Assembly (NCBI RefSeq): GCF_006345805.1
Contig: NC_043002.1
Location: 18,166,001 to 18,230,000, forward strand
Reading direction: 5' to 3'
Length of the DNA stretch: 64,000 bases
From: Octopus sinensis
Lineage: Eukaryota
The stretch's first letter is position 1. Every line of letters begins with the position of its first letter. Under the pieces are notes generated by a model. The model was not told where the DNA came from. It was given only the letters and a program-made list of their open reading frames with translations, and did not search any database. This document shows positions 3,166-40,209 of the stretch, one piece after another. Made by a program: the position numbers and the translations under genes.

Positions 3166-3215
<50 letters not shown>

Positions 3216-3216
<1 letters not shown>

Positions 3217-3730
3217 TAGCAGAAAGATCGCCCTCCGGCGGTTTTCTGATAGCTACTTGGTAATATTTTCACATTTGATTAATAGTGTTCGCATGCTTAG
3301 TAAGTATTGCTTTTATTGTTATGGCTTCAGAGTATATAGGGATTTATGAGAAAGAATTCTTCCGAGACGGTGGAGAGAGGGGTTTTGGAAAATTCACAGG
3401 ATCTGAACTTTTTCCCTCATAACTTTCAGGAAGATGGATATCTTTTAATGAAAATTTATACAAATCCCTTTCAAACGGCATGAATTGCGATTATAAAGAA
3501 ATTTGCGGGGGAAACGATTTTCCTTTCTTTTAAACCAGAGCCTTTGAAATCACGGTGGGGGGGGGTCATCTTTGCATGAAAAAATTTGTAAACACTTTTT
3601 TTACACCTCCTCCCTCATCATCCCACTCCGGACCTATTTTGGCCAACTATTTTTTTTTTTTTGCTCTTCAAAACCATGGAAAGAGCATTTTCGGTAATTT
3701 TTTTTAATTGTTAATATATTCAGAGAAAAT
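3216..3730 (-). mobile_element. Non-autonomous Helitron-like element (3' end clear, 5' end uncertain)
   Basis: CTAG at 3216-3219 flanked by AT, with adjacent hairpin cagaaagatcgcc-ctcc-ggcggttttctg. Confidence 0.5.
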
Positions 3731-3824
3731 TGAGTGATTTAACGGCGATTTGGCTATAGTTTCTAGCACATCCAAAGAACCTCCTCGTTTTTTTTATCAC
3801 ACCCTTCCTTAGTAGTACTAATTT

Positions 3825-3941
3825 CACTTCAACATTAAAATTTCATTTGTGTCAAAATATTTTCTTCGCTTTGAAACCGCGACCTGTGCCCTGACAAAAC
3901 TTCGCAAAAGTAATGCAGCACGAAGTTTTGTCAGTACACAG
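3825..3941 (-). mobile_element. Fragment of the Penelope-type G3-C8 hammerhead family with a small fold-back
   Basis: Matches 31338-31420. Inverted arms 3884-3904 / 3921-3941 with 2 mismatches. Hammerhead core degenerate (GGGCACA). Confidence 0.65.
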
Positions 3942-3953
3942 TAAACATGCACG

Positions 3954-30563: not shown

Positions 30564-30723
30564 AATTTTCATCTGTCCTGCCCGCCAAATTTGGTTCTGG
30601 TGTTCGCTGAATTTTTCCTCTAGAGAATTTCCTTTGTAGTTTGATCGTTGATGATCTGTTTCTAGCATACGGCCGGCTACCTAGCAGTCCAGCCCTGCCA
30701 ATATACACACATATATATATATA

Positions 30724-31114
30724 CTAGCAGTATCGCCCGGCGTTGCTCGGGTTTGTAAGGGAAATAATTATATAAGCATTTTTAGAGACGTAAAGTATAA
30801 TAGCCATCTCAATATGGCTAACCACAAAGGGGAGGGGTGTTACTGTAGCTTTTTAGTTCTGAGATTTAATAATAAATTTTAGAGAGTTGCTTCCCTTATA
30901 TATGTCAAAAATGGATTAAAAATGGGAAAAATTGATGGTAAATTTTTTTTAATCGTAGACTCATCGTAGACGCGCGCTAATACCCAGACGGGCTCGATAT
31001 GAATCACGACTATAAGATACCCGGTTTTGGTTAAACTGCACCATAAAATGTGGGAGTAGTTAGGAATCTAAATTGTAGGAGACAGACACACAACCTCACT
31101 TTTATATATAAAGA
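30724..31114 (-). mobile_element. Complete non-autonomous Helitron (391 bp)
   Basis: Minus strand: A|TCTTTATATATAAAAG ... CCCG-agcaacgc-CGGG hairpin ... CTAG|T; AT target, no TSD. Confidence 0.88.
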
Positions 31115-31180
31115 TTTCCTCTATTTACATAATATTGAGGTCTCTTTGTTTCTTTTGTTATCTTACTGTTTTTACCAATA
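31115..31180 (+). mobile_element. Terminal fragment of the same Penelope family as 15024-16371
   Basis: tttcctctatttacataatattgaggtctcttt..gttatcttac nearly identical to 16309-16371. Confidence 0.8.
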
Positions 31181-31215
31181 TACATATATATATATATATA
31201 TATAAATATATATAT

Positions 31216-31539
31216 AGTTACAGAGATGTACTTGCATAGCAAGTGACTTGATCTGAGGTCGTGTGCTGGAACGAAAACAGTTGCAGCGTTGAAGGTGTTT
31301 ATAAGCCATTTAAGAAACACACAAAAACCGTTAGATTCACTTCAACATTTAAATTTAATTTGTCAAAATATTTTCGTCGCTTTGAGACCGCGACCTGTTA
31401 GCACGATATTTTTGTCAGTGAACAGGTCGCGGTCTCAAAGCGAGGAAAATATTTTGGCAAATTAAATTTAAATGTTGAAGTGAATCTAACGGTTTTTGTG
31501 TGTTTCTTAAATGGCTTACAAACACCTTCCACGCTGCAA
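31216..31539. mobile_element. Short Penelope-type fold-back element in (TA)n, 119-bp inverted arms
   Basis: Arms 31281-31399 / 31421-31539, 21-bp spacer, few mismatches. Confidence 0.85.
31411..31461 (+). ncRNA. Putative minimal type I hammerhead ribozyme, G3-C8 core variant
   Basis: TTTGTCA-GTGAACA-G-GTCGC-ggtctcaaa-GCGA(G; C in the other arm)-GAAA-ATAT-T-T-TG(G/A)CAAA; palindromic stem III AATATT. Confidence 0.6.
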
Positions 31540-31619
31540 TATATATATACACACATATATATATATGTATGTATGTATGTATGTGTGTATATGTGTATGC
31601 ATGTATGTGTGTGTGTGTG

Positions 31620-31840
31620 TGCGTGTCTGTGCTCGTGATTGTCCTCCACCACTGCTTGACAACGAATGCTGGTTTGTTCACATCCCTGTCACCTAGTGGT
31701 TTGACAAAGAAAACAGATAGAATAAGTACAATGCTTACAAAAATAAAACTGGAGTTGATTCATTAAACTACAATTCTTCAAGGCATTGCCCCAGCATGGC
31801 CACAGACCAATGGCTGGAAAAAGCAGAAGAATAAAAGAAT
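31620..31840 (+). mobile_element. SINE family A, 3' half
   Basis: cttgacaac..gctggtttgttcacatccc..gatagaataagtac..cagcatggccacag. Confidence 0.75.
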
Positions 31841-31904
31841 ACATTCTCTGCTTTGGTCTTATGTTCAAGGCATGAGAAAGCTTGAGTTTACATGAGAAGG
31901 CCTA

Positions 31905-32160
31905 ACAGACCTGGTAGAAACAGCAGCCAAATCTCCCTCAAATCACACCTTACTGTCTTATGTATGTATATATATGAGCCAATGAGGGGAACCTCTACAT
32001 GGTAGCTAGACCTGGTAGACATAGCAGCCAAATTTCCCCCAAATCACACCTTACTGTCTTATCTATGTATATATGTATGTATGAGCCTATGAGGGAGACC
32101 CCTACATGGCAGAAATAGCAGCCAAATCTCCCTAAATCACACCTTACTGTCTTATGTATG
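31905..32160. repeat. Three tandem ~90-100-bp units derived from family D
   Basis: agcagccaaatctccctcaaatcacaccttactgtctta occurs three times. Confidence 0.85.
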
Positions 32161-32569
32161 TATATATATATATATATATATATATAATCTATATATAATA
32201 TATATATATATATATATTATATATATAATATACAAGCCACTACGGTTATTTAATGTAAAGTCTTCCTCAAATCACTCTCTCTTGCTATTTACTCTCTTCC
32301 AAGAACATTTTCACTCACTCTTATCTCTTAGCTTCCCATACATTTTACTCATGTATCTATCAGCGTCATAGACAGAAACAAATATTACATCGCCATCGCC
32401 ATCGCATTCTATTGTCTACCTGTCAACACACACACAGTGAATTAGTTTCAGTTTATTCGTTGCACACTGTGTGTGTGCGTTTGCGTGTGCTGTAAACCAG
32501 ACTAAGAAAAGCATTTAACATATACACCACGATGTGAGTTTTCTCTAAATTTTGCTTAATTGGGGTTGA

Positions 32570-32709
32570 AATTTTAAAAACCGGACCTGGCAAAACCCGA
32601 TGCATTCTACTCTTAAAAATGCTAGGTAAATTGTAATTGAAGAAATCCTATATTGTAGATTTCTATAAGAGACAAAGGGAGGCAGATAAAATCTGCCTTT
32701 TATAATAAG

Positions 32710-32711
<2 letters not shown>
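32570..32711 (-). mobile_element. Helitron-like 5' terminus
   Basis: Minus strand A|TCTTATTATAAAAGG resembles the 31114 terminus; other end not identified. Confidence 0.4.
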
Positions 32712-39005: not shown

Positions 39006-40209
39006 TCAGAATGTTACGTATCATATGGTGAGTGAGTTTTAAAGTATATTTTAGCCACTATGAGTAATATTAGCAAATATGGTATACATACAATCATTAT
39101 ATTTTAACCTTTATGAAATGTTTGTTGCTTACACAAAATAACGACATGAAGACTAATTTCCGGAAGAAAACTATTCATTTCGTTGCAATATATTTAACGA
39201 AATAAATTTGTCATTTGTATAACTCCTCCTCCAACTTCTCTAATTTATTCCATTTCCTTTTTCTCTTTCTCTCTCTCTCTCTCTCTCCTTCTCCCTCTTT
39301 TCCTTCCCATTGTCACCTCCTCCTTCACCCCAATTCTCCTTCGTGGTCTTTATGTTTCGTTCTCTCCTTTCTCTGTGCGTATACGGCGCGCCTATACTTC
39401 ATTGCCTATCTCCAAGCCTAGCAAGTGCATTTATCCTGCAACGCTTATACTCTTTTACTCTTTTACTTGTTTCAGTCACCCGACAGCGGCCATGCTGGAG
39501 CACCGCCCCCTTATGCTAACTCTTTATATTTCTCTCTCTCATTTTCTTTCTTTCTTCCTTTCTCTATATGATGCAAAGCGTGACAGGGCAAATCAACCGA
39601 CAAACCACAATTTTCGTTATACTACACGCACATACACACACGCACACGTACATGCATATGAAGCAATTCTTATATCATACTTAAAGCAGATATATCGTTG
39701 AAAGAGTGCGAAACTGCGCAATCTCGTTAAAACATTTCTGAGAGTCAAGACTATTGAAAAGGTTGCAAGACGCAACGAAAATAAAAATAAGAAATAAATG
39801 GAAATTTTACCAGTGGGTGTGTTAAATTATAAGGCACAAAAAGAAAATTACTCTCCCCAGACATAACTGATTTCTTATAGAAATGAGTATTAAAAGCAAC
39901 ACAGGAAAAACGGAAAAACATTGTCCAGCAGCGGTGTGACGTTGTTAAATACGTATTTCTTTTTCTTTGAGCTTCGTCAATAGCAAGCATCCAATGATAC
40001 CCCATGGTAACAGAAAATCGTCAGTCGGCTACACATATGGCTAAAGAATGACTGAAAAATCCGATAGGTATTTTTCGAATCAGTGAAAGATTATTGGATA
40101 ATACACAGTACGCTAAACAAGTTCATCCAACCATTCTTCTGTCAGAACCTAAAATTTATAGTAGCTTATCTTTAAACTCTATGTATATTAAATGTGTGTG
40201 TTTGTGCGT

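What the first reader, a model, noticed from the sequence alone, without database searches (positions are those of the whole stretch)
31411..31461. Hammerhead candidate with an inverted G3-C8 core pair
Seen: GTGAACA replaces CUGANGA (C3G with G8C), with a 7-bp stem I, a 5-bp stem II (intact in the opposite arm), GAAA, palindromic AATATT stem III and a UUU triplet. The second copy at ~3850-3897 also keeps G3 and C8. Known: the G3-C8 double mutant partly rescues activity in engineered hammerheads. Inference: a natural, family-fixed G3-C8 ribozyme.
Basis: partly seen in the sequence, partly recalled or inferred. Interest (0 to 1): 0.72.

Follow-up and report, generated by a model that had tools for sequence, protein, structure and literature searches.

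The report
Retrotransposon hammerhead with inverted core pair
A family of jumping genes carries a hammerhead-shaped RNA motif in which a normally fixed C-G pair of the catalytic core is flipped to G-C, while two sister families keep C-G or use U-A there; intact copies are predicted to cut themselves slowly, but this particular copy is damaged and cutting is untested.

Summary
The motif is real and family-fixed. With the core left free, 1,204 of 1,351 genomic copies have G3 and C8. A separate search for copies with neither letter found 6, none C3-G8. The motif lies about 1 kb behind the RT/GIY-YIG frame of a Neptune-like Penelope element. Two sister families (46-56% protein identity) carry the same fold at the same place with C3-G8 (an older subfamily has a fully canonical CUGAUGA...UC) and with U3-A8. 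Stems I and II covary too, so the fold is likely under selection. The window copy has lost G10.1-C11.1, lies in a 119-bp inverted repeat and rides inside a 2-kb composite repeat, so it is likely inactive. The 3850 copy is decayed. Against real cleavage: 0 of 32 partner arms start at the cut site, and a young sister subfamily spread with A9C. I found no natural G3-C8 hammerhead in print (one key paper was unreadable). The scan noted similar unverified candidates on other DNA. Verdict: new variant of a known kind; activity untested.

The parts
31411..31417 (+). Stem I, 5' strand
31418..31424 (+). Core N3-A9, GTGAACA: G3 (31418) and C8 (31423) replace C3 and G8
31425..31425 (+). Extra nucleotide between A9 and G10.1, typical of Penelope minimal hammerheads
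31426..31444 (+). Stem-loop II; 31444 is G in this copy (C in the family), breaking G10.1-C11.1
31445..31454 (+). GAAA, palindromic helix III AATATT (31448-31453) and U17 (31454); predicted cut after 31454
31455..31461 (+). Stem I, 3' strand
31400..31540 (+). Right arm: 5'-truncated pseudo-LTR fragment of the Penelope-like element, ending at the first of its two 3' end points
31218..31399 (-). Left arm: inverted copy truncated inside the core, ending after the ~56-nt tail; forms a 119-bp, 97% inverted repeat with the right arm
30721..32710 (+). About 2-kb composite repeat that carries the palindrome as a passenger; termini resemble Helentron-associated elements (recalled, not tested)
3823..3899 (-). 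Older, decayed copy of the same family (G3 and C8 kept; U4G, A6C, C11.1A)
39749..39780 (+). Copy of sister family C: U3-A8 core (39754-39760), stem II and GAAA; helix III and the 3' strand of stem I are deleted

Best explanation
The motif is a damaged copy of the hammerhead-fold element in the terminal repeat of a Neptune-like Penelope retrotransposon whose core 3-8 pair is G-C instead of C-G; intact family members are predicted to self-cleave slowly as dimers after U17, and the inversion likely arose as a compensated double change under selection for the fold. Shown: position, family fixation, parent element and covariation across sister families. Inferred: G3-C8 still positions the 2'-OH of residue 8 as general acid with G12 as base; two motifs in one transcript pair their AAUAUU palindromes to build helix III; activity is low and may need the element's protein. 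The window copy is likely inactive.
For: Fixation: 1,204 of 1,351; 6 copies with neither letter, none C3-G8. Parent: a 793-aa open frame with RT motifs, a C-x3-C-x2-C linker and a GIY-YIG end, ~1 kb upstream on the same strand; 35% identical over 797 aa to P0089, which hits GIY-YIG at 6.6e-7. Penelope insertion signature: of 120 arms, 52 end at +79..+91 and 55 at +138..+147 from the cut site, with inverted partners and TA targets. Sister family B: 2,652 copies, 96 of the first 100 C3-G8; 183 with canonical CUGAUGA-G, and C17 in 12 of 13 such arms. Sister family C: 2,218 copies, 90 of the first 100 U3-A8. A metagenome relative (L250, 42% identical) has a canonical core. Tree: A sister to (B,C), support 99/99, so by parsimony C3-G8 is ancestral and two lineages changed both letters. 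On 8 chosen natural copies, 40 of 40 cells pair and 3 of 5 pairs change on both sides. Stem I pairs 2 and 3 also covary (read). Loop II is 9, 8, 6 or 5 nt, so no reading frame explains the conservation. In a 207-nt short copy stem II has probability 0.99 and stem I 0.52-0.82. C3G/G8C partly restores cleavage in a Penelope hammerhead (PMC11167929).
Against: No cleavage was measured. 0 of 32 inverted partner arms begin at the predicted cut; 30 keep 20 nt or more upstream of it, so insertion templates were uncleaved. The young B subfamily, with open frames of 880-1,120 aa, spread with A9C, so a canonical core is not needed for spreading in this clade. Hammerhead mutants do not affect insertion in vitro in the anole element. 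The double-hammerhead dimer (-25.4 kcal/mol) is barely better than two monomers (2 x -12.4) and worse than the cofold minimum (-30.6). I found no locus with two same-direction motifs flanking an ORF among those fetched. The covariation rests on three families and one outgroup, and the rows were chosen by me.
Confidence: 0.6

Rival explanations
1. The hammerhead fold, including the 3-8 pair, is kept as a structure (for example a binding or folding element for the RT-endonuclease) but no longer cuts to a biologically useful extent.
For: Uncleaved templates; A9C and U17 in the young, open-frame B subfamily; cleavage dispensable for insertion in vitro and no RNA-seq reads ending at the cut in the anole element (PMC11167929); Cervera and de la Pena leave non-cleavage roles open.
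Against: The 3-8 pair belongs to the catalytically active conformation (established knowledge), so keeping it through double changes fits selection on activity. U4, G5, A6, A9 and GAAA are unchanged as majority letters in all four A subfamilies.
Confidence: 0.28
2. The ribozyme died in the ancestor of family A; G3 and C8 are two neutral substitutions that happen to be complementary and were copied along with the master element.
For: Given that both letters change, about 1 in 3 outcomes are complementary (simple arithmetic). Damaged versions do amplify as passengers: 39 other copies are identical to the broken window copy. The ~150 nt downstream is also well kept within family A.
Against: It needs the same coincidence in family C (U3-A8) and no mismatch in stems I and II across three families whose surrounding sequence aligns at only about half identity. 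Changes among A subfamilies fall in loop II, not in the core or stem II.
Confidence: 0.1
3. The motif is a chance look-alike of a hammerhead.
For: The window copy folds no better than shuffles; no Rfam hammerhead hit is shown.
Against: It maps position for position onto a canonical CUGAUGA...GAAA...UC motif in the sister family. Rfam also misses that canonical copy. Descriptor hits in 30 sampled sequences: 0.
Confidence: 0.02

Closest known systems
Minimal type I hammerheads of metazoan Penelope-like elements (Cervera and de la Pena 2014, PMC4209133; main text parts 1-2 of 4 and supplement parts 1-2 of 3 read)
   Same: Located in the pseudo-LTR behind an RT/GIY-YIG frame; one nucleotide between A9 and G10.1; G10.1-C11.1 closing pair; palindromic helix III; short stem I; U17 is common; the U3-A8 variant is reported (family C has the same core letters as their S. 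mansoni family 4).
   Different: None of the 56 representative motifs in their Fig. S3 has G3; their descriptors required C3-G8 or U3-A8. The inserted nucleotide here is G, which is rare in their set (consensus H; one G example). Helix III has a 6-nt palindrome.
Engineered C3G/G8C hammerheads (anole PAc element, PMC11167929, passages read; review PMC8495972, passage read, citing earlier work I could not open)
   Same: Identical inversion of the 3-8 pair; reported to restore cleavage partly.
   Different: Those are laboratory double mutants; here the inversion is the natural majority state of a retrotransposon family in over a thousand copies and in related organisms.
Natural core variants of hammerheads (Perreault et al. 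2011, PMC3088659, passages read)
   Same: Reports natural covariation at 3-8 (U3-A8) and rare tolerated core changes.
   Different: The passages read name U3-A8, A6C, insertions and U15.1-A16.1, not G3-C8.
Neptune-clade Penelope-like elements (Craig et al. 2021, PMC8557442, passages read)
   Same: C-terminal GIY-YIG after a CX2-5CxxC linker, microsatellite targets, inverted 5'-truncated partner, tail at one end.
   Different: The tail is ~56 nt rather than 30-40; Neptune versus Nematis was not resolved against reference sequences.

Membership tests
Hammerhead ribozyme (type I, minimal) | C3 and G8 in the CUGANGA box | tested here: not met
   G3 and C8 in 1,204 of 1,351 copies
Hammerhead ribozyme (type I, minimal) | Watson-Crick pair between positions 3 and 8 | tested here: met
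   G-C, C-G and U-A in three sister families
Hammerhead ribozyme (type I, minimal) | U4, G5, A6, A9, G12, A13, A14, A15.1-U16.1, H17 | tested here: met
   Majority letters in all four A subfamilies; H17 is U
Hammerhead ribozyme (type I, minimal) | Stems I and II with G10.1-C11.1 next to the core | tested here: met
   Met in intact family copies, with compensatory changes between families; not met in the window copy (G31444) or the 3850 copy
Hammerhead ribozyme (type I, minimal) | Helix III formed through a palindrome in a dimer | tested here: inconclusive
   Palindrome present; dimer energy marginal; no tandem pair flanking an ORF among the fetched loci
Hammerhead ribozyme (type I, minimal) | Site-specific self-cleavage after N17 | not testable with these tools
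   Needs an in vitro assay; 0 of 32 partner arms start at the cut
Penelope-like element (EN+) | Single frame with RT and C-terminal GIY-YIG | tested here: met
   793-aa frame with RT motifs and a GIY-YIG-like end; no direct Pfam hit, but 35% identical to P0089, which hits GIY-YIG
Penelope-like element (EN+) | Two 3' end points (tail), inverted truncated partner, motif in the 3' repeat | tested here: met
Neptune clade | CX2-5CxxC linker before the endonuclease; microsatellite targets | tested here: met
   C-x3-C-x2-C in P0001; TA flanks
Neptune clade | Phylogenetic placement with named Neptune rather than Nematis references | not tested
   No named reference proteins in the trees
Helentron-associated element (composite carrier) | Subterminal inverted repeats, 3' hairpin, no target-site duplication | not tested
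   Termini resemble it by eye; the label is recalled

The most novel reading that the evidence does not exclude
This is a natural, active G3-C8 hammerhead ribozyme: one retrotransposon clade in one genome has sampled three of the four Watson-Crick versions of the catalytic 3-8 pair (G-C, C-G, U-A) plus an A9C core, giving a natural activity series that tests whether Penelope elements tune their ribozymes down, and showing that CUGANGA-based searches miss whole high-copy families.
Probability: 0.5. Interest if true: 0.72.

Novelty: new variant of a known kind. Interest (0 to 1): 0.6.

Why it matters
The C3-G8 pair was shown by engineered rescue, and U3-A8 was later found in nature. I found no printed report of a natural G3-C8 family (searches; Lunse et al. 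2017 could not be read). A fixed natural inversion, with sister families as built-in controls, is evolutionary evidence that the pair and not the base identity is selected. It also makes an open question testable: whether the slow hammerheads of Penelope elements need to cut at all. Descriptor-based ribozyme surveys would need relaxing.

Tried and rejected
Rfam: no hammerhead among the 150 of 336 matches shown for the window and none at gathering score for L119, L275, L262; uninformative, since the canonical copy L275 is missed too. The repeat finder and TRF were swamped by microsatellites, apart from the 119-bp inverted repeat. Pfam and PDB gave no significant hit for P0001. Sequencing runs: no RNA holder listed on record; only contigs were laid, so no statement on expression or RNA ends. 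Idea that the ~800 bp beyond the tail in older copies is the element's ORF: rejected, it is the body of another composite repeat. Idea of retrozyme-like tandem arrays (C29, C1, C24): rejected, they are local duplications that include flanking DNA. Intron idea: a branch-point and acceptor-like sequence precedes the 5' limit of short copies, but no donor was found within 900 nt in 15 of the 16 long copies that printed a result; unresolved. Coding constraint across the motif: rejected, loop II length changes by non-multiples of three. In the first tree one family-B row was the wrong frame; the tree was rebuilt with fewer rows and the same topology; both are quick trees without bootstrap. Papers not held: Lunse 2017, Przybilski and Hammann 2007, Martick and Scott 2006, Scott 2013. 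One supplementary file of PMC4209133 could not be searched.

Full report
Observation. The described letters are at the stated place. In hammerhead numbering: stem I 31411-17/31455-61, G3 31418, C8 31423, A9 31424, an extra G 31425, stem II 31426-30/31440-44, GAAA 31445-48, palindrome 31448-53, U17 31454. The window copy has G at 31444, so the pair next to the core is broken. It is one arm of a 119-bp, 97% inverted repeat. Folded as one strand the palindrome reaches -196 kcal/mol and stem I has probability 0.0. The copy near 3850 keeps G3 and C8 but has three other core or stem changes. A relaxed descriptor hits only 31418 in the window and never in 30 sampled sequences.

Family. A search with 31405-31540 scored 40 of 273 candidates; all 40, the window included, were identical over 135-136 nt. 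The 30 loci fetched show that the palindrome rides in a ~2-kb composite repeat, so these identical copies say nothing about selection on the motif. The wider family does. A pattern with all eight core positions free gave 1,351 exact matches and fixing G3 and C8 kept 1,204. A shorter pattern demanding neither letter gave 6, none C3-G8. Contigs of runs from four other organisms laid on an intact copy (L119) list no other letter at 8% or more at G3 or C8; one run is thin there, and only sequences at least 80% alike count.

Parent element. Short copies show the Penelope signature: inverted partners, TA targets and two 3' end points about 56 nt apart (52 and 55 of 120 arms), matching the tail described in PMC8557442 and PMC11167929 (passages). 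An upstream motif seen as a loose end has 812 matches. It led to long copies in which the motif lies ~1 kb behind an open frame of 793 aa or more (L201, L256-L258). The protein has RT motifs, a C-x3-C-x2-C linker and a GIY-YIG-like end. Pfam does not hit it, but it is 35% identical over 797 aa to a homolog that hits GIY-YIG. I call it Neptune-like; the clade was not tested against named references. The host is likely an octopus, because a protein named from Octopus vulgaris falls inside sister family B.

Covariation. Protein searches found two sister families. At the same place before their tails, family B (54-56% identical to A) has a C3-G8 core and family C (46-51%) a U3-A8 core, each with the extra nucleotide, a 5-bp stem II and GAAA. 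B has 2,652 exact matches, 96 of the first 100 C3-G8 (my count). 183 have the fully canonical CUGAUGA box, and 12 of 13 such arms also have C17. C has 2,218 matches, 90 of the first 100 U3-A8 (my count). A metagenome relative at 42% identity has a canonical core (L250). The tree puts A as sister to B+C with support 99 and 99 (quick tree), so C3-G8 is ancestral by parsimony and two lineages changed both letters. On eight natural copies that I chose, the 3-8 pair and four stem II pairs are paired in 40 of 40 cells, three pairs change on both sides, and no shuffle of 500 reaches the covariation score. These rows are related and few, so this is not a probability. Stem I pairs 2 and 3 covary as well (read). 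The surrounding sequence aligns at about half identity between families. Among held loci, partly selected by patterns containing the core, G3-C8 is in 26 of 26, 6 of 8, 124 of 139 and 20 of 24 arms of four A subfamilies that differ in loop II.

Mechanism. Shown: a hammerhead fold with an inverted 3-8 pair, descended from a canonical one. Inferred from established hammerhead chemistry and from the partial rescue by C3G/G8C (PMC11167929; PMC8495972): the pair still positions residue 8, two motifs would pair their palindromes into helix III, and the RNA would cut slowly after U17. Results against a needed cut: none of 32 partner arms starts at the cut and 30 keep upstream sequence; the young B subfamily spread with A9C; the dimer energy is marginal; no full element with two same-direction motifs was seen among fetched loci. 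In the anole element, cleavage is dispensable for insertion in vitro. I put about 0.6 on slow but real cleavage of the intact form, 0.28 on a fold kept without useful cleavage, 0.1 on neutral coincidence. The window copy itself is likely inactive.

Comparison and novelty. Everything except the inversion falls within the known minimal hammerheads of Penelope elements (PMC4209133; parts of text and supplement read), where none of 56 representatives has G3. Perreault et al. (passages) report U3-A8 but, in what I read, not G3-C8. Six full-text searches found only engineered G3-C8. Lunse et al. 2017 and three other papers were not held and could hold an earlier report. The scan's own notes list two unverified G3-C8-like candidates behind Penelope elements in other genomes; I did not test them and do not count them as support. 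Verdict: a new variant of a known kind, interest 0.6.

Noticed in passing
G000 family B (e.g. L252, L253, L255, L259, L261): The dominant, open-frame subfamily has A9C and mostly U17, whereas an older subfamily (183 of 2,652 exact matches) has canonical A9 and C17: a core change fixed in a spreading master.
   Followed up: partly
window 39749-39780: A truncated family-C (U3-A8) motif lies in the same window.
   Followed up: yes
L097-L126, L133-L170 and L061-L090: Short copies have a sharp 5' limit about 58 nt upstream of the predicted cut (30 of 34 arms at -64..-54), right after an acceptor-like AG seen in long copies (812 matches). They may be run-off copies from a transcript start or a spliced 5' end; no donor found.
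   Followed up: partly
window 30721-32710: A ~2-kb composite repeat with Helentron-like termini (recalled label) that spread the broken palindrome; 39 other copies are identical over 135-136 nt and tandem arrays occur (L130, L132).
   Followed up: partly
window about 3210-3950 (minus): The second copy also sits in a composite repeat with a related terminus at about 3214.
   Followed up: partly
L239, L254, L267: Another repeat carries a canonical minimal hammerhead with a 4-bp stem II and a CG palindrome.
   Followed up: no
L032-L034, L036, L040-L044: An older subfamily carries an ~190-nt insert with telomere-like CCCTAA repeats downstream of the motif.
   Followed up: no
L102 short copy: The 5' end of the 207-nt short unit is predicted to pair with the end of the tail.
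   Followed up: no
window 31906-32170: A 101-nt tandem repeat (2.8 copies) inside the composite element.
   Followed up: no
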